Origin: Heterodontus francisci
Taxonomy: Eukaryota
DNA: 64,000 nucleotides
NCBI RefSeq assembly: GCF_036365525.1
Contig: NC_090399.1
Coordinates: 31,404,430 to 31,468,429, forward strand
Direction: 5' to 3'
The notes under the pieces are model-generated. The model was given only the letters and a program-made list of their open reading frames with translations, did no database searches and had not been told where the DNA came from. This document shows, piece after piece, positions 6,414-56,568 of this stretch (position 1 is the first letter of the stretch; each line of letters begins with the position of its first letter). A program made the translations under genes and the position numbers.

Positions 6414-6486
6414 TACAATTGTTTAGACTGTACCTTATTATACAAGAGACCTGGTTCTTTTAATTTCTTTGCAATAGTTGTCAGAT

Positions 6487-6803
6487 TTTGATCACAACAA
6501 TCAAGTTTCCAATTTATAAGATCCCAGACTCGAGAGCAATTAATTTGATGCCAAACGCAGGACCCCAATTTAGATATGTTATCCCAGAGACGAGTAATTA
6601 CTATGATTCCAAATGCGAGCCCTCCAGATTAGTCTGATTCTGATCCCAGATGCGGGCCACCAAATTAAATATGATTTAACTGCAAGTGAGACCCCAATTA
6701 AGATATGATTCAAATCCAGAAACCCGAATATATGTGATTCAAATCTTGAGTAAGCCCCCAATTACTATGCTTTTCCAATCCCAGACGAGAAACCCAATAA
6801 ATA
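6487..6803 (-). repeat. Tandem array of about 10 degenerate tRNA-Pro PBS-like units in the Gypsy leader
   Basis: Units of about 27-40 bp with approximate consensus AATTGGGGGCTCG(nn)TCTGGGATTTGAATCATAT. The + strand 6738-6760 TTCAAATCTTGAGTAAGCCCCCA matches the tRNA-Pro 3' end TTCAAATCCCGGACGAGCCCCCA at 17/23, and all mismatches are transitions. Confidence 0.7.
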
Positions 6804-7143
6804 TATCACGACTGACCGCTCCAGTCAAAGCCCCCAATCAAAACATACAATTCTGATTGTGGTGGGAGGAACGCACTGTTAATTCAATCCCATTGCTCCA
6901 AAGATCGCCTGAAATATCATTTATAACTTTCAAAATTAGAGGAAGACCAGCCAAATTGTACCATCTATTAACCCCCGAATGAGACTAACCATACCAGGTG
7001 TCTTTAAATCAACAAATTGACTGTTTAATTAGAAAAACTAAATTCTTAAGCACTATGAAGATGTAAACAATATTTAAAATACAAAAAAATAGAGTCCTTG
7101 CAAATTTACAGTCCAATGTTGTTTGAAGTCCTCAAAGACATCC

Positions 7144-7859
7144 TGCAGAACCAGTAAAACACATACAGTAAAAACACATATACCAAAAACACGTAAGAAC
7201 TTAATTAAAACAATGGGGCCAGTCACACAACAAAGAACAGTGCATTGAAGCGAGATGAGTAGAAAGGGGCACAGCACACAGATGAATTGCAGATATGATT
7301 ATAGAAAAGGTATTGAGGAGGATTCCAGAAACTGTCCTTGGACTTAGCAGATAGAGGGAGTCGTTATGGACACCAGATATGATTAAACTCTGAATAGACA
7401 ATGGGAAACTGTGAAGTTTTGAACAGGTTCTCACTGAGCCAAATAAGGAATTATCATTATGTCATTATACCCGACCTTTATGAGTAGGTAAGAGGGGCGG
7501 GTCTTAGAAACAAGATTTAACCCCTGACTGAAACTGAAGAAGGTACGAGAACCCAGGGGAGGAACACTCAAGAAGATACCCTCAGACAGGGGCTCAGAGA
7601 ACAGAAGAGCAGCCGCAAGTCCAAGACTGATCACCTCGTGTCTTGACGGGTAGTATACTGTACAGCTAGTGGGAGATTGTACTTTGATGAGTTTTGAGAC
7701 TGTACAACAAGTGAGAGCTTGTACTTTGATGAGTTTCGATACTGTACAAGTAGTGAGAGTTTGTACTTGATGAATTAGTGTGTGAATAAAATATTGATGT
7801 ACCTATCACCAATTGGATTCCATGGATTCTTTAAGAGTAAGTGTATATTAGGCACAACA
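7144..7859 (+). mobile_element. Probable solo LTR of another family nested in the Gypsy LTR
   Basis: Absent from the homologous LTR at 53047-53987. It has TG...CA ends, AATAAA near 7785 and three 42-bp tandem units at about 7657-7775. No clean TSD. Confidence 0.55.
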
Positions 7860-8162
7860 GTTTGATGTGGAAAAAAAGTTCTTCCACAGTAGAACAGTCC
7901 GTCGTCTAACTCCAGCAGTTCTTCTATGATGGATTTCAATAATTAACATCTTGAGAACACTTTCAATAGAATCAATCTGAATTTAGATTTTTTGCGGGAT
8001 AAAAGATTGTCACTGTCTAACTTCCCTTTCTTCAGTTCAAATTATCAGAGATTTTCCTTAGGCTTGTTTTTTTTTTAGAATTTGTGAGATAATAATAATT
8101 AAACAGACCAAAATTCTCTTCCTTCAGTTTAAATGCCTGAGTACTATTTTTCTGGTCCTAAC

Positions 8163-8470
8163 CAGGGTTCGATTTCAGGGTTCGATTCTGGGTACTGCCT
8201 GTGTGGAGTTTGCAAGTTCTCCCTGTGTCTGCGTGGGTTTTCTCCGGGTGCTCCGGTTTCCTCCCACAAGCCAAAAAGACTTGCAGGTTGATAGGTAAAT
8301 TGGCCATTATAAATTGTCACTAGTATAGGTAGGTGGTAGGGAAATATAGAGACAGGTGGGGATGTGGTAGGAATATGGGATTAGTGGAGGATTAGTATAA
8401 ATGGGTGGTTGATGGTCGGCACAGAGTCGGTGGGCCGAAGGGCCTATTTCAGTGCTGTATCTCTAATCTA
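8163..8470 (+). mobile_element. V-core tRNA-derived SINE (HE1-like), 5'-truncated
   Basis: B box gggttcgattc and V core tgtgtggagtttgca...ccggtttcctcccaca. Nearly the reverse complement of 49750-50096. Confidence 0.85.
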
Positions 8471-9897
8471 ACACGACAGCTGTCTGTTTGTTTGTGTTCC
8501 CTGTTCGAACAAACTGTCTTCAACTACAAAGCCAGTCCACAATTGAATTGCAACAAATGTATCACTTGATACTCACTCCAAGTGGCCATGTCCATGGTCA
8601 TGACAGTGCACCCTTTGAATCGCAGTTTCCAAATGGTTGTATCCAACGGCAACTGAAAATGCATTTTCTCTAACTCCGGAAGCCTGCTGGTTCTTAAAGC
8701 AGTACTGATCCTTTGCAAGCCTTAAAGGTACACCACATATTCCCGGGGAAAAAAACTACAGGACCATGACAATATGCATCAAGATGTTCCACCTACCTCT
8801 CTGCAACTCAACGCTTTCATTCTGATGCCTGTAGTCCCAACTATAACACACTGTTGTTTAGGGTAATTAAGGCATAGAATATACCATTATGGTTAGTTAC
8901 AAATAATCTCTAAATGCAAATAATATGTGACCTGATTTATATACATGCCTCTTTTGACTGCTGCACAGGAACTGCGAACTACATTGTCTGGTATATTGGC
9001 AGACTTTAGGCCTAAGATTGTCGAGCTTAATATAAAATGAAATTTGATTATAAATTAAAGTACAAGATGGATTCTCTTACTCTTGATATTGAAGTCGAAC
9101 ACTACAGAGATTGAACTACTCAGTATGACATTTTGCTTTCTGAATTATTTGCGTTAGAGTGGAGCCTGGATTGTCAATGCCTGCTGAAGCTGATTTGGGT
9201 ATTGAAGTAATATATTACATGTTAGAGCTAGATGAATATCTTGGGAAATGTTTCGATAAAATATAGACATATTGTGCCTGAACACATTGTAGAAGATGTT
9301 TATTAAATAACAGATGACAAGTACAACTAACTTCAGAACAGATGTATATGCAAGGTAATCAATTATTAGCAACTTTCCGATAAACTTATCAGTTCTGTTT
9401 ATTTGCATCAGCTTAGACTACTTGTGATAGATTATGCTGGTTTTCTTACAAGAGACAGCTGAAATGTGCATCTATTTTTGCATGATACTGAAAATGATTC
9501 ATATGTGATGTTAGTTATTGCATATCCAGCTTATGCAGAGTTCAAATAATTTACTTTCCTGTCCAAACATTGCAACACATTATTTGGCCAATGCTACAAA
9601 CTGGGAGAGGATTATACCTTCTGGGCACTATGTAGCGACATCATAAACGTGTGTGAACATTTCCTCAGATTACAGTTTCTCGGGAAATTGTAGAAATTGC
9701 TAGGAAAGAAACATTGAATTCTTCCTCATATGTTTCGAATGACTTTATTATACAACAACCAAAGCGAATGTATGTAGTCTCAAATAGCTACATACAAGAG
9801 AATTTGTTTCACTTAATCACAACAGCACTGGAAACCTTGCAGAAAGGTAAGAATCCCTTTGGTTTCTATGAGAAAATTTCGTTTCAGTAGAAAGCAA

Positions 9898-50096: not shown

Positions 50097-53046
50097 AGTA
50101 TCTCCAGCGACGCCAAAAAGCTCTAAACTGTTAACGCCGCAGACATAAATTTTCACCAAACGTTAAGCAAGAAAACCGCCGTCCGAAGTTTCTCCTCTGG
50201 AACATTAATGGAATCTCCCCAAGCCCAGTACACAACTTTCAGAAAAGCATGTCTCAAAGAAACTTGATAATTAAAACTTTTTTTCCTTTAAAATAAAACC
50301 GGCTGGATATCGGGCAAAAATGTTCACATATTTAACTATCCGTTCCGTAACTCACAATTGTATTTTATAGTGTGGTGCTGGGTTATGAAACCAGGAAGTT
50401 CCCAGTTCGGGTCTCCAGTCCCGATTGAGTTAAATGTTCAGGAGTAGCCATTGAAATGGGAAATGAATCACCCATGCTCGCTACATTTCTAAATTGGTTA
50501 AATTTAAAAAGAACCGAGCTGGCCCTCCTGGGAACTTTGCAGCTACATTCGATGTCATTTAGACAGCAACTGGAAGGAAAAACATACCCTCCTCCAGGGA
50601 TTTCATTCCAGAGTAAGATCGGGTTTGACTCCTGATTTCCACGCCAGTTTTAGCAAAATTGGGAAGAGTTTCCGAATTCTGGAGCAAATTCACCCTGGGC
50701 TGCCCCCAGTTCCGGGCTGCAACTACGTCTTCATTATCAGCTACAAAGTCAGAGAAGACTCGGTGCTGACACTACAGTTGCAGCATAAATATGCCTTAGG
50801 CCTGTTGTCTCAGTACCCCAGGGGACTTCAGTGCCTCTGGATGTATATCAGACAGAAGCACCCAAGGTTGCTGTCGCTGATTATTATCTGATTGCGGTGA
50901 CCTCTACTAGATCTGTGTAGACATGGGGTGATGGTGGGGCAGAACTGTGATGGTTTACCCCTACGGTGATACTTAATGCACACTTGGGTAGTGGTCACAA
51001 AAGATTGGCGGTCTCCTGTGCAGCCAGCCCTAACTAAACTCAAAAACTTTAGGAAACGATAAGACAAAACTGGAAGGAGAAATAACATTGTTGAGCATCT
51101 AGTTCAAACCAATGTTTCTCTAACAGAGAATACTATGTTTTTTCATATTTGCAGCAATCAATCTTCTCTCTCTTTATTTATACCCAAAGATCCCAAATTA
51201 CCTGCATAGCTGTCATGAATGAAACTGATGATTTACCAATTCACAATTTGTATGTTTCTCCTATCTGTTGCTTATCCACTGGAAGATGTTTGCGGTCACA
51301 GCTTTGGAAACAACCTTAGAATTAACTGATAGGGCAAATTAATTGAATCCTAATTATAAAATGCAGTAATGTATTTTTTTTTACTATTCATATTGATCTT
51401 TGATTAGTCAGTTTATGAATATGTGTGTCGGGTCGCCTCTCCGTCTTAACTTTAGCAGGGCTTTGAGTGTTCAATGGTGGAGGCATAACCGGGAAGTTAG
51501 TGAGACTTCTCTGCCATGAGTTGAGTAGGACATGTTATGACCTAATGAAGTTATCACACCCAACTTCTGCATTCTGAAAGGATTTGTTCTAATGAAATGT
51601 TAATCGTAGGGCACAGCCACCTTCACTGTTACCCTTTCGGCTGAAGCCTGAACTTCAAGTTAATGTGCTGGATGAGGCAACAGCTTTCGGCTAACCTGCC
51701 CATTGGAAAACTGCCGAGAACGGGCCAAATACTGGTTTTACATCCCGTCCGATTTTGCTGTCCACTGAAGGCATTAGAGAGCAATTTAGGGCGAAGTGTT
51801 CCACTCCTGTGGGCTTTCTGCCCACCCACACCCTCCCCCCGAGTTAGGTTGAAAGCACCGGGTTGACAGTGGCTTAAACACGCTTGACAGTTTCAAGAAA
51901 TTGGAATATCTGGGGCAATCCGTTCCATTCTGCTTTTTAACAAAATCATGGGCCTACTGGCTGATGCATTGAATTACCATATTCTCCTCTCCGCTTTGGG
52001 AGGTAGGTTAAAAACTCAGCACAGTCTTATAAAACACCAAAATTGCAACAAAAAAAATCACCACAACATTTATATGTAACAAATCCCACGATAATTTGCA
52101 CAGCTCACGTTGAGTGTTGTTAAAATAATAAGACAGAAATTTGCATTGATCTGATGCCTCTCACGATCTCAGGGTTTCCCAAAGTGTCCACTTTACAGCC
52201 GCTTCGTTGGCTGTGAAGCACTTTGGGACGTCCTCAGGTCGTGACGGCAGCTGTACAAAGGTAAGTTGTTTATTTTACAAAAGGACATTAAAAAATAAAC
52301 TGGAACTGCATCACACCAGATTTGCTGTTGCGTTTAAAGCCGAAGATTGGCTCCGAGACAGATCTTCGTTGAAACATTCGCTCAGCAGCCCAGCGCACTG
52401 GTCAGAATCTATTCCGCTTTTCTGCGTAAATTATGAAAATAAAAAGTGTAATACACTCAACTCGTTTAAGCAATACAGCTTGAAACCTGCTGAAAGTGCT
52501 CCTGCTTAATGTCATCGTATAACTTACAAGGTTAACACAAAGTATCAAGCAACGTATTTTAATTACAAACTTCGCCAACAAGTCGATAATTGTTCCTACA
52601 TTTTAATTATAGTGGCAGAACCTGGTCTGCAGTGTACTAGGAGACTCCATACGACTATATGTGTATCGCCCTGGTGTTTGCATTAAGCGCACTCCGGTAT
52701 ACACTCAATCAGACATTTGGGTGACCACAAAACGTATATTGCTAAATTGTTTGCTATTTTAGCCCATGCCCAATTTGGAGGAGGTGGTGACAGTAATTAT
52801 GCACAGTTGCTATCATGTTAATTTATAAAATTAATTTCATTTGGCAGAAAACATATAAGTGCCACATGGTCACCAGATAGCTTTAAATGAAGCTATTCCA
52901 TCTCTTTATTCCATCTGATCTCCTCCATCCTTAATATCATCTTTACAGCCTTCCGGTAACACTATCCAGCTGTTCCCTTATTGAATCTACCAGAACCCTT
53001 CCTGACCATATGTTCCAGCTGCTGATTACTGTCTGTACAGAAATAC

Positions 53047-55397
53047 TGTTATGATCCCGTAGTTTTCTTGTTCGGGAAGAATGTGGTGTGCCTTTAAGGC
53101 TGGAAAGGGAGCAGTACTGCTTTAAGGCAGCAAGCTGCAAAAAAAAGAGTCAAAGAATGCATTCTTGTGGCCCTAAGATACAGCCATTCAACAACAGAGA
53201 TCAAGAGATACATTGTTACAATTTAATTTTGAACTGGCTTATAGTGGAAACAGACTGTTCTAATTCAGAGAAACAGACAGACAGCTGTGTGTTAGCAACG
53301 GAAAGGAGTGCTCTCAGATAATTTAAACTGAAGGAAGAGAATTTAGTCTGTTTATTTACTATTCTCTCTCAAAAATTCTAAAAATGTCAAGCCCAAACAG
53401 AGATCTCTGATAATTTAAACTGAAGGAAGGGAAATTAGACTGTGACAATCTTTTATCCCTCAAAAAAGCTAAAGCCAAATTGATTCAATAAAAGTGTTTG
53501 ATTGTTGAAATTCATGGCTGGAGAAGGAAAGCATCAATTTTAACTTCTGAATTAGACTATGGACAGTTCTACTGTTGAAACTCCCGCCCCCCCCCCCCCC
53601 CCCCCCCATCGGACAGCTGTGAGGACTTCAAGCAACCTCGGATTGGTCCACATCCAGCAGGAGCGTAAATCTGCAAGGACGCTAATTTCTTTTCTATTTT
53701 AAATACTGTTTATAGCTTAGTAGTGTTTAAGAATGTAGTTTTTCTAATTAAACAGTAAATTTGTTGATTTAACGACACCTGGTTTGGTTAGCCTCATTCA
53801 GGGGTGAGGGTGGGGGTGGGGTTAATAGAGGGTACAATTTGGCTGGGTCTTTCTTTAATTTGGAAAGTTTAAAATGATATGTTAGGCGATCGGTGGATGG
53901 ATGGGATTGAATTAGCATGTTTCGCCCACCACAATCAGAATCGTATATTTTGATTGGGGGCTGTGATTGGAACGGTCAGTTGTAACATATTAATTGGGTT
54001 TCACATCTGGAATTTGAATTATATCTTACTTGGGAGCTCGTGTCTGGACTCAGAATCGGACTAATCTGTAGGGCTCGCATTTGGAATCATATTAATTACT
54101 CATTTCTGAGATAACATATTTAAATTGGGGTCTTGCGTTTGGCATCATATTTAATTGCTCTCGAGTGTGGGATTATATCAATTGGAAACTCCATTGTTGG
54201 GATCTAAATCTAATGCCAATTACAAAGAAGCAAAAGAACCAGGTCTCTTGTATAATTAAGTACAGTCATTGCCATTGTAATGGCAATAGTGGTTGTAGCA
54301 GAGTTTTGGGGAAAACAGAATGTTTTCCTGAGTGATTTGATGACTTTAACAAGAATAAATTAAAAGAATTGGCAATAAAAGTGGGGTTGGAATTGAAATC
54401 TGATTCCTAAAAAGCAGAGATATTTGACATTATCACTGAACATTTGGAATTAGAAGATGATAATGATTATGATGACAAAGCTGAAGGGGAATACGAGGAA
54501 CAACAAAGGGAATATGAGTGACAAGAAGGTAGTAGGTCCGAGAGTGATGCAGTGGTATTGGCTAGGATTCAGTTAGAAACGAAAAAACTTGAGGCAGAAA
54601 AAGAATTAAGAAAACTTGAGTTGGAAAAGAGGAAAGGGAAAAGAAAAAGTAATAGCAACAAGAAAATTTGAATTTTAAAGAGAAAGTGAAAGAGAAGAGA
54701 GGGAATTTAGGTTAAAAGAGATGGAACTACGACAAAAGGGTAGCCTTGAATACAGGGAAAATTTAGGGCCAGGATGAATCTGAGTTTAGATCAGGACCTA
54801 GCGACAGTTGTTTAAATTTATACAGGCTCTTCCTAAGTTTGAGGAAAAGGACGTAGGCGCATTTTTCATATCTTTTGAAAAAGAAACCAAACAGATGAAA
54901 TGGCCAAAAGAAAGCTGGACACTGCTTATACAGGGCAGCTTGGTAGGCAGAGCTCAAGAAGCTTATGCCACACTTCCTGAAGAGGCTTCTGCAGATTATG
55001 AGATGGCAAAAAAGGCTATTCTCGCTTAGTATGAGTTAATCCCTGAAGCTTACCATCAGAAGTTTAGGAACGTATGAAGATTGGCTGGGCAGACATATTT
55101 AGAATTTGAGACAGTGAAGCAAATGAATTTTGACCGTTGGATACGGGCGTTAAAGATAGAAACCACATATGAGAACCTTCAAGAATTGATTCTCTTAGAA
55201 GAGTTTAAAAACTCCATTACTTCAGTGAGAACTCATATGGATAACCTGAAAGTTTGGAAATTTAGGCAAGCAGCAGACATTGCTGATGATTTTGAGCTTG
55301 TGAATAAGCCAACCTATTTTGTCCATCACCCCTATGGACCCAAGAAGGATAGATATATTTTGAATTGGGGCTTTGACTGGAGCGGTCAGTCGTAACA
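53047..55397 (+). mobile_element. Gmr1-like Gypsy, internally deleted (5' LTR 53047-53987, gag from 54280, last about 45 bp of the 3' LTR)
   Basis: TGTTA...TAACA ends, ATAC TSD at 53043-53046 and 55398-55401, and gag homologous to 5370-6413. Confidence 0.9.
53988..54210 (+). repeat. Tandem array of about 7 PBS-like units
   Basis: The units correspond to units 1 and 5-10 of the array at 6487-6803. Confidence 0.7.
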
Positions 55398-56568
55398 ATA
55401 CCTATTGCTAATCAGATACTAATCTTTAACTTCAACTAGTTCAAATTCATTAACTTAAATGCCAACTTAGATATACATAAATGAAGGGTGCAACCATTGT
55501 CCTCCTACCTGAATCATTGACATGCTTTGAGGCTGAGGATCATATCTCGCTGCGAATTGAATGAGAAAGATGTGTATGTAAATAGCATAACATGTCAACC
55601 CAACAAAGAAACAATCTGAGAATATAGATTTTAAATTCTAATTTATTTAACCTTGCATCGATATAATGTTGCCATTTGAAAAATAAAACGCACCAGAAAT
55701 TTGATTCTGGTCATTGACAATAAAATTGTTCATGAAAGTTTGGCTGCACATTGCGGGGAAAGAGAAGGGGAGTTTGGTGTATTGGATAGCTCTTTCAAAG
55801 AGCCAGCACAGGCGCAAAGGGATGAATGGCCTCCTGTGCTGGATAATTCTATGATAGTAGCAAGATCGTGAGAGCAGAACAGCCTCAGTTCCCTCTCCAA
55901 GGGATGTGTCATTCTCACTTGGGTATATGCCACGGGTCTTTTATATGTGCTGTGTCAAAATCCTGAAATTACCTATCCAGTATCATTGTGTTAGCTCTAT
56001 CGCCAGAAGGACTGCAGATGCACAAGAAAAAGATTTACTATTACGTTCTCAGAACAGCTAGGGATGGATCAAAAATGTGGCCCTGTTCACATTACCAAAC
56101 AAATTTAAAAATCACACAGTGCCATTACATAGAATCTGTTGTATTTTGCAGTGGCAATGCTGACTAAACCGTTAGTGCTGACCGTCATTACTCCACTGAA
56201 GCTGACAACAACTTTGGAGACCGCACACGTGCAGAGTAACAGAAATCCAAAGTTGCTGCCAGTAATTCTGCACTTCTCCAGAGGGTGTGCTATTGAGGCT
56301 CCCTCAGGCTGCAATTAAGGGGAAATCACTGAAATGACCAGAGATTCCACTCTTCGGCTTTTACTCTCCTGTGTAAAGGCTTTTGAAAAGTTACACCTTG
56401 TTGAATGAGATGTACTTGGGTTTTAACGGGGTACTAACTTCATATTCACTGCTAAAATCCTTCACTGGCCCTGAAAACCTAATTTTGTATTTATGCAATG
56501 TCAAATTTCTCCATAATGATAAAATTAAAATAATATTTTCTTAATGCATTTATCTTTATTTTATCTTT

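What the first reader, a model, noticed from the sequence alone, without database searches (positions are those of the whole stretch)
6487..6803. Gypsy leader made of a tandem array of tRNA-Pro primer-binding-site copies, with variable unit number
Seen: between LTR and gag there are about 10 units here and about 7 at 53988-54210. The six gag-proximal units match one-to-one, while three LTR-proximal units exist only here. Known: TGGGGGCTCGTCCGGGAT is the 18-nt tRNA-Pro PBS, LTR elements normally have one PBS, and copying of the primer stops at m1A58. Several units continue the complementarity into TTGAA (T-loop), past that stop. One unit starts TGGTGGCCCG, like a tRNA-Ile PBS, which may be chance. 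Inference: the array records repeated primer capture by faulty plus-strand transfer. It might provide spare priming sites or act as a decoy for 3' tRNA fragments that target PBSs. I do not know whether this is described for this family.
Basis: partly seen in the sequence, partly recalled or inferred. Interest (0 to 1): 0.7.

Follow-up and report, generated by a model that had tools for sequence, protein, structure and literature searches.

The report
Growing stack of retrotransposon primer sites
A shark jumping-gene family carries a stack of one to eleven worn copies of the site where a tRNA starts its copying, with intact sites only at the front and more copies in younger lineages, likely because copying errors kept adding units at the front; no function for the extra copies is shown.

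Summary
The array is real (minus strand: 10 units here, 7 in the second copy) and is a trait of a whole family. It belongs to a Gmr1-like Ty3/Gypsy family (SCAN gag, integrase before RT, 4-bp TSD), mostly non-autonomous, with hundreds to thousands of copies. Each unit is the LTR end, a spacer and a tRNA-Pro PBS. Across 152 parsed copies the arrays form a nested ladder of 1 to 11 units, longer in younger subfamilies. An intact PBS occurs in 27 of 152 first units and 0 of 1048 inner units.
One copy holds a 39-nt tRNA read-through, so faulty plus-strand transfer does occur. But 5 of 7 recent gains were re-copied from element RNA, not from the primer. The Ile-like unit is private decay, the extra units are not unique to this copy, and no 3' end shows priming from an inner unit (0 of 33, 0 of 11). 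A decoy role is untested.
Single or few extra PBSs are known in HIV-1. This scan noted similar stacks in other genomes. Verdict: new variant of a known kind, likely a neutral reverse-transcription by-product.

The parts
6804..8771 (-). 5' LTR of copy 1, interrupted by later insertions at about 7144-7863 and 8178-8467; its terminal CA reads TA
   Evidence: blastn to copy 2 and to L215
6804..6860 (-). Array-like insert in U5: unit tail, spacer and PBS-like unit F followed by the LTR end; present in both LTRs of younger subfamilies, absent from short-LTR relatives
   Evidence: F in 134 of 152 copies
6762..6803 (-). LTR junction spacer (6798-6803) and unit 1, the likely functional PBS position; here the non-canonical allele A
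6665..6761 (-). Units 2-4 (types B, a, B'), the younger block
6471..6664 (-). Units 5-10, the six gag-proximal units shared by most copies; unit 10 keeps the flank found after the single PBS of sister copies L066 and L067
4716..6413 (-). Broken gag (SCAN-type capsid, zinc knuckle) and protease region of copy 1, in several frames; start codon inferred from sister copies; no 3' LTR found in the window
   Evidence: SCAN hit in relative L215; no Pfam hit in 4 of 4 window pieces
53047..53987 (+). 5' LTR of copy 2 (TG...CA)
53988..54223 (+). 7-unit array of copy 2: allele A first, then the six shared units; the head of its second unit looks chimeric
54224..55352 (+). Rest of leader and broken, 3'-deleted gag of copy 2
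55353..55397 (+). Last 45 bases of the 3' LTR of copy 2, including unit F; 4-bp TSD ATAC at 53043-53046 and 55398-55401

Best explanation
The array is a stack of LTR-end/spacer/tRNA-Pro-PBS junctions in the leader of a Gmr1-like retrotransposon family, and it likely grew at its LTR-proximal end through strand-transfer errors of reverse transcription, likely as a neutral by-product. Inferred steps: (1) tRNA-Pro primes at unit 1 only, and the plus strand copies its last 18 nt, so unit 1 is repeatedly reset to the tRNA sequence while inner units are not. (2) The first duplications probably joined the 3' end of plus strong-stop DNA to the end of the minus strand, which stops a few bases into the LTR end; this gives PBS|(AA)CA-spacer-PBS joints. 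(3) Once two or more junctions exist, that minus-strand end can re-anneal at an inner junction of a co-packaged RNA and copy one or two more units in front (gain), while the plus strand can land on an inner unit (loss). (4) Occasional read-through to the second stop near U54 probably pulled the unit tail toward TTGAA.
For: Shown: unit anatomy. Nested ladder of 1-11 units with core order kept in 141 of 148 copies. Intact PBS in 27 of 152 first units and 0 of 1048 inner units. The same downstream array carries either a canonical or a mutant first unit (7-unit class: 11 canonical, 21 B-type of 43; 10-unit class: 12 canonical, 10 A, 10 C2, 9 D of 49), as expected from PBS inheritance (PMC4549124). 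Younger classes have more units: gag terminal branch against unit number rho -0.60, n 57; LTR-LTR identity 86.7% (n 15), 89.8% (n 7), 90.8% (n 8) for up to 7, 8-9 and 10 or more units. Units 6-9 and copies L081 and L276 break right after nt 18. In L223, L247, L231 and L278 the spacer typical of the LTR junction lies inside the array, so the crossover fell at the donor's 5' end. In L223, L247 and L272 the added unit is an allele with no tRNA gene match. L178 holds 39 nt of tRNA-Pro complement joined to an inner unit, in an insertion with both LTRs and a TSD (locus L275).
Against: All mechanism is read from dead copies; no intermediate was observed. The gag tree is star-like and weakly supported above 7 units. 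Older copies also lose units by decay (18 of 62 long-LTR copies lack a core unit), which inflates the age correlation. The gradient beyond unit 1 is not significant. All 7 copies of the commonest 8-unit layout have the mutant allele A first and none is tRNA-corrected, which the 50:50 model explains only if corrected products shortened the array. L278 and L279 fit direct primer capture equally well. Successive subfamilies lengthened although losses are common among progeny, which neutrality does not obviously predict. The seven gain cases were picked by eye.
Confidence: 0.68

Rival explanations
1. Each unit is an independent capture of the primer tRNA end: plus strong-stop DNA (18 or 23 nt of tRNA copy) is joined in front of the old PBS every time.
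For: Oldest joints at nt 18; L278 and L279 gained a canonical unit with a TTGAA-TAACA joint; L178 proves read-through; first-unit allele C2 matches 13 variant tRNA-Pro genes at two positions.
Against: 5 of 7 recent gains need an RNA template; alleles A, B and D match no tRNA gene; the young block alternates A-B-A-B; units 5, 6, 8 and 9 share a 2-nt insertion relative to the tRNA (seen by eye).
Confidence: 0.12
2. Ordinary tandem-repeat turnover (polymerase slippage, mid-array copy choice or unequal exchange in DNA) after one chance duplication; polarity comes only from tRNA resetting of unit 1.
For: L062 has adjacent B units sharing a private change, L133 and L180 have inner duplications, and chimeric units and deletions are common.
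Against: Subfamilies differ almost only at the LTR-proximal end and the core order is kept in 141 of 148; the junction-type spacer appears inside the array only directly behind unit 1 (2 of 152 parsed copies, plus L231 and L278).
Confidence: 0.12
3. The array was kept by selection: as a decoy for 3' tRNA fragments, as extra landing sites that rescue plus-strand transfer after read-through, or to help a non-autonomous RNA compete for primer tRNA. Not exclusive of the best explanation.
For: Net growth over successive subfamilies; inner units still pair with the tRNA end at median -11 to -23 kcal/mol against -5 to -10 for shuffles; L178 was completed by landing on an inner unit; at least 27 of 53 long loci are of a non-autonomous type; 3'-tRFs can repress imperfect PBS-like 5' UTR sites (PMC12853362, passages).
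Against: No inner unit is intact (0 of 1048); no part of the PBS is consistently kept; sites in cis on the same leader would be expected to add repression rather than divert it (inference); sister families spread with one PBS; the leader folds no better than shuffles (z -1.45).
Confidence: 0.15

Closest known systems
HIV-1 MAL-type partial PBS duplication (PMC3185550, passages)
   Same: A natural, inherited duplication of PBS sequence just downstream of the functional PBS (23 nt, 14% of isolates).
   Different: One partial copy. Here up to ten extra junction copies, ordered in time, in a germline retrotransposon family.
HIV-1 PBS-mutant revertants with multiple PBSs (PMC1084362, passages)
   Same: Several PBSs arise when the PBS mismatches the primer in use.
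   Different: Transient culture products with different tRNAs. Here all units trace to tRNA-Pro and were fixed stepwise over evolutionary time.
tRNA read-through in plus-strand transfer: second stop at m5U54 and extended genome-tRNA complementarity (PMC8599865, passages); tRNA inserts of 7-54 nt in defective HIV-1 proviruses (PMC12657518, passages)
   Same: Complementarity beyond 18 nt into the T-loop; a long tRNA copy at a deletion junction (L178).
   Different: Here the tail reaches one base further (pairing with position 54), appears to have arisen stepwise within the family, and is repeated in four units.
PBS polymorphism by variant primer tRNA (PMC4549124, part 1 of 2 read)
   Same: Progeny inherit either the tRNA copy or the RNA's PBS; variant tRNAs leave variant PBSs.
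   Different: Here several strongly mutant first-unit alleles persist at high frequency, and only one (C2) has a candidate tRNA gene.
Gmr1-like Ty3/Gypsy elements (10.1101/2025.03.03.638093, passages)
   Same: SCAN capsid followed by PR, IN, RT-RH.
   Different: No PBS array mentioned in the passages seen; most copies here lack RNase H and often the integrase core.

Membership tests
Gmr1-like Ty3/Gypsy LTR retrotransposon | SCAN-type capsid domain in gag | tested here: met
   PF02023 E 1.5e-7 in gag of relative L215; best protein hit of the window gag piece carries PF02023; no hit in the window's own pieces
Gmr1-like Ty3/Gypsy LTR retrotransposon | Integrase upstream of RT-RNase H | tested here: met
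   L229 rve, RVT_1, RNase H in that order; order kept in 4 of 4 loci that hold all three, of 53 examined. RT hits in L215 and L255 are LINE insertions and were discarded
Gmr1-like Ty3/Gypsy LTR retrotransposon | TG...CA LTRs with short TSD | tested here: met
   LTR about 0.9 kb; exact 4-bp TSD in 12, one mismatch in 2, none in 10 of 24 copies where a start was placed; ATAC for window copy 2
Gmr1-like Ty3/Gypsy LTR retrotransposon | RT phylogeny within the Gmr1 clade | not tested
tRNA-Pro primer binding site | 18-nt complement of a genomic tRNA-Pro 3' end plus CCA, just after the 5' LTR | tested here: met
   tRNA-Pro genes L123-L126; 55 exact LTR-end plus PBS matches genome-wide; met at unit 1 of relatives, degenerate in the window copy
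Array of spare, working priming sites | Insertions whose right end extends through a unit | tested here: not met
   0 of 33 3' ends; 0 of 11 candidate junctions (the 126 followed by T were not inspected)
Array of PBSs for different tRNAs | Units matching distinct tRNA isotypes | tested here: not met
   Ile-like start in 1 of 138; A, B, D alleles match no tRNA-like gene. Only Pro, Thr, Lys and Phe genes were seen, so a scan against all isotypes was not done
CRISPR-like polarised acquisition array | New units added at one end in time order | tested here: met
   with the decay caveat
CRISPR-like polarised acquisition array | Foreign spacers, dedicated acquisition enzyme, guide function | tested here: not met
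   Sequence between PBS copies is LTR end and spacer; only retrotransposon domains found
3'-tRF decoy | Binds tRF-Pro and relieves repression | not testable with these tools
   No run on record as RNA

The most novel reading that the evidence does not exclude
The stack is a selected device of a non-autonomous retrotransposon: extra PBS junctions let it finish plus-strand transfer after tRNA read-through and compete for or buffer tRNA-Pro and its 3' fragments. It also forms a time-ordered germline record of primer use, including a shark-specific variant tRNA-Pro and stops at positions 58, 54 and 37.
Probability: 0.15. Interest if true: 0.75.

Novelty: new variant of a known kind. Interest (0 to 1): 0.5.

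Why it matters
LTR elements are defined and annotated by one PBS. This family shows, across a population of copies, how a PBS stack is built one junction at a time, which single-copy sightings cannot show. It preserves in vivo fossils of reverse-transcription errors (tRNA resetting of the PBS, read-through to tRNA position 38, switches between co-packaged RNAs) known mostly from HIV culture. The natural series of 1 to 11 sites is a ready substrate to ask whether extra PBS-like sites increase or dilute 3'-tRF repression.

Tried and rejected
tRNA-Ile unit: rejected. tRNA genes for alleles A, B, B' and D: none; the 2 hits for B were element copies. C2 as proof of repeated variant-tRNA capture: only suggestive. 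G59 is the majority state of at least 547 tRNA-Pro-like array genes (first 100 rows seen), yet the G59-only allele occurs in 2 first units against 10 for C2. C2 is not one clade on the LTR tree (at least 5 changes forced), but that tree includes truncated LTRs and recombination. Priming at unit F in L162 and L249: rejected, their 3' LTRs keep F. F as proof of inner priming: not needed, since L231 shows a unit inserted into U5 of the 5' LTR only. More long read-throughs: only L178. Special RNA fold: z -1.45. Monotonic decay by match count: rho -0.42, p 0.23. RT hits in L215 and L255: LINE insertions. Identity with the Myc-carrying family noted by others: pieces of 5 copies read as integrase and RT remnants by eye, no family scan run. 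Expression: no RNA holder listed; contigs of 4 runs from two labelled organisms cover parts of the array, none spans it, so no conclusion on expression. Rfam tRNA search returned only Thr and Lys genes at the match sites. Literature: 9 searches found no paper on a PBS array in a retrotransposon family; one search was swamped by phosphate-buffered saline. Repbase/Dfam entries, subscription journals and supplements were not seen and may describe this family. PMC10886601 and PMC4131045 (passages) had no bearing.

Full report
Observation. The stretch 6487-6803 is the leader of an LTR element on the minus strand; a second copy lies at 53047-55397 on the plus strand, 82% identical over 1.4 kb. Parsing against units cut from real copies gives 10 units for the first and 7 for the second, the six gag-proximal types in common. 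The exact 18-mer is absent from the window within 4 substitutions, but the array pairs with the tRNA-Pro end more often than any of 200 shuffles (9 sites against a maximum of 7).

The family. A search of the 6.0-Gb genome gave 3791 candidates, 40 scored, and a 25-nt pattern at the last unit has 588 exact matches. The element is Gmr1-like: SCAN capsid, integrase before RT and RNase H (definition from 10.1101/2025.03.03.638093, passages), LTR about 0.9 kb, 4-bp TSD. The two named protein hits are horn-shark annotations, so the host is likely a shark. Of 53 ten-kb loci, 6 hold RNase H; 27 share a shortened RT running into the 3' LTR, 21 of them also lacking the integrase core; the other 20 are truncated or interrupted. 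Most copies were therefore probably mobilised in trans.

Sample. I examined 205 loci: 60 chosen by likeness to the two window copies, 30 by an intact PBS, 25 by the LTR end, 90 by the gag-side anchor. 157 had both anchors, 154 were distinct, and 152 were analysed after dropping L246 (too long) and L002 (99% duplicate of the window copy). The 48 misses include single-PBS sister families and interrupted copies. The sample is not random.

Anatomy. Each unit is PBS, an optional tail, then CA and a spacer like the one at the LTR junction. Unit counts: 1 (4 copies), 3 (1), 4 (2), 5 (12), 6 (11), 7 (43), 8 (12), 9 (14), 10 (49), 11 (3), 13 (1). Longer arrays are shorter arrays plus units at the LTR side, and the last unit keeps the flank that follows the single PBS of L066 and L067. 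Core order holds in 141 of 148; 18 of 62 long-LTR copies of the anchor sample have lost a core unit.

Polarity and time. An ungapped PBS, CpG decay allowed, is found in 27 of 152 first units and 0 of 1048 inner units; unit 1 is the strongest site in 98 of 148 multi-unit copies. Further inward the gradient is weak (rho 0.64, p 0.048 with unit 1; 0.50, p 0.17 without; by match count p 0.23). A gag tree of 120 copies nests 1, then 4-8 units with short LTR, then 7 with long LTR, then 8-11, with poor support in the upper part. Within-class distance falls from 0.176 to 0.090. Terminal branches shorten with unit number (rho -0.60, n 57; intact 7-unit 0.092, n 8, against 10-unit 0.052, n 10), and LTR-LTR identity rises (rho 0.53, n 30). 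Loss of units in old copies inflates these correlations.

Unit 1 is reset by the primer. On an unchanged downstream array the first unit is either canonical or a mutant allele, as retroviral PBS inheritance predicts (PMC4549124, part 1 of 2). In the long-LTR class with up to 7 units, 11 of 22 scored first units keep a tail one T short of the tRNA complement, so resetting usually stops at 18 nt. Allele C2 matches 13 intron-bearing variant tRNA-Pro genes at two positions; this is suggestive only. Alleles A, B and D match no gene. The Ile-like start is private.

Read-through. The tail after unit 1 is varied in old copies and TTGAA in 37 of 46 scored copies with 8 or more units. It ends at tRNA position 54 by standard numbering, close to the second stop and the extended complementarity reported for lentiviruses (PMC8599865, passages). 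L178 carries 39 nt of tRNA-Pro complement (37 matches, the 2 misses at one CpG), ending just before G37 (m1G37 in tRNA-Pro is recalled, not from a call) and joined to an inner unit. It has both LTRs and the TSD CTTT (locus L275) and is the only such case in two pattern searches. HIV-1 proviruses show the same kind of insert (PMC12657518, passages).

How units are gained. The oldest joints (units 6-9; L081, L276) break right after nt 18, which fits joining of plus strong-stop DNA to the minus-strand end, though a plain duplication on one base of homology is not excluded. Seven recent gains were found by eye. In L223, L247 and L272 the new front unit is a non-tRNA allele; in L231 and L143 its tail is an inner-type tail; L278 and L279 fit either route. 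In L223, L247, L231 and L278 the displaced unit keeps the spacer typical of the LTR junction. I infer re-annealing of the minus-strand end at an inner junction of a second RNA; a two-unit jump would also explain the A-B-A-B block.

Spare priming and U5. None of 33 3' ends and none of 11 candidate junctions ends beyond a unit. A PBS-like unit F lies within U5 of both LTRs in 134 of 152 copies and is missing from the older short-LTR copies. It may record one ancient inner priming, but L231 shows that array units can enter U5 by template switch.

Comparison and verdict. Extra PBSs are known as one partial duplication in HIV-1 MAL-type isolates (PMC3185550, passages) and as multiple PBSs in culture revertants (PMC1084362, passages). 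Nine searches found no paper on a family-wide array; repeat databases and supplements were not seen. Unchecked notes of this scan report similar stacks in other genomes; none was found by sequence. The parts of the mechanism are known; a fixed, time-ordered ladder up to 11 units appears not to be described. Function is unshown, and a neutral origin is most likely.

Noticed in passing
L002 (G000:C29:31371665-31372225): A 99% identical copy of the window element's leader lies about 33 kb upstream of the window start: a segmental duplication or an assembly duplicate.
   Followed up: no
L182-L196; G000:C35 16.4-26 Mb and unplaced contigs: Large tandem arrays (about 4.6-kb period) of intron-bearing tRNA-Pro-like genes, with a tRNA-Phe gene about 1 kb away in 13 of the 15 loci read; at least 547 pattern matches, most of the first 100 with G59, and 13 with a T-stem mismatch.
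   Followed up: partly
L280-L287 (G000:C45:2595700-2596500): A 35-bp minisatellite whose unit contains the exact 18-nt tRNA-Pro PBS, many copies, with no LTR context seen.
   Followed up: no
L145-L149, L151 (C28 and C894): Six near-identical loci in which LTR plus three units are joined to another repeat; amplified as part of a larger duplicated block.
   Followed up: no
L256, about 4.8 kb past the 5' LTR: The 3' LTR end keeps the spacer and four more bases, then joins what looks by eye like an inverted LTR piece; possibly an unprocessed end or autointegration.
   Followed up: partly
L231 5' LTR: An array unit of type B is inserted in U5 of the 5' LTR only, at a GGGAT-TGAAT-like motif of the LTR.
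   Followed up: partly
window 6825-6866 (-): The U5 insert is predicted to form a hairpin with the preceding CCCACC tract; could be selected or chance.
   Followed up: no
window 53047-55397; also L069, L201, L234: Internally deleted copies join gag or leader to only the last 30-70 bases of the 3' LTR yet, in the window copy, have a TSD.
   Followed up: no
L061-L090 single-PBS sister families: The PBS is followed by degenerate forms of the tRNA T-loop complement (for example CTGAACC in L077, L080), suggesting old extended complementarity in the clade.
   Followed up: partly
window 7144-7863: An insertion in the 5' LTR of copy 1 with a 42-bp tandem repeat (7657-7773), possibly a solo LTR of another family.
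   Followed up: no
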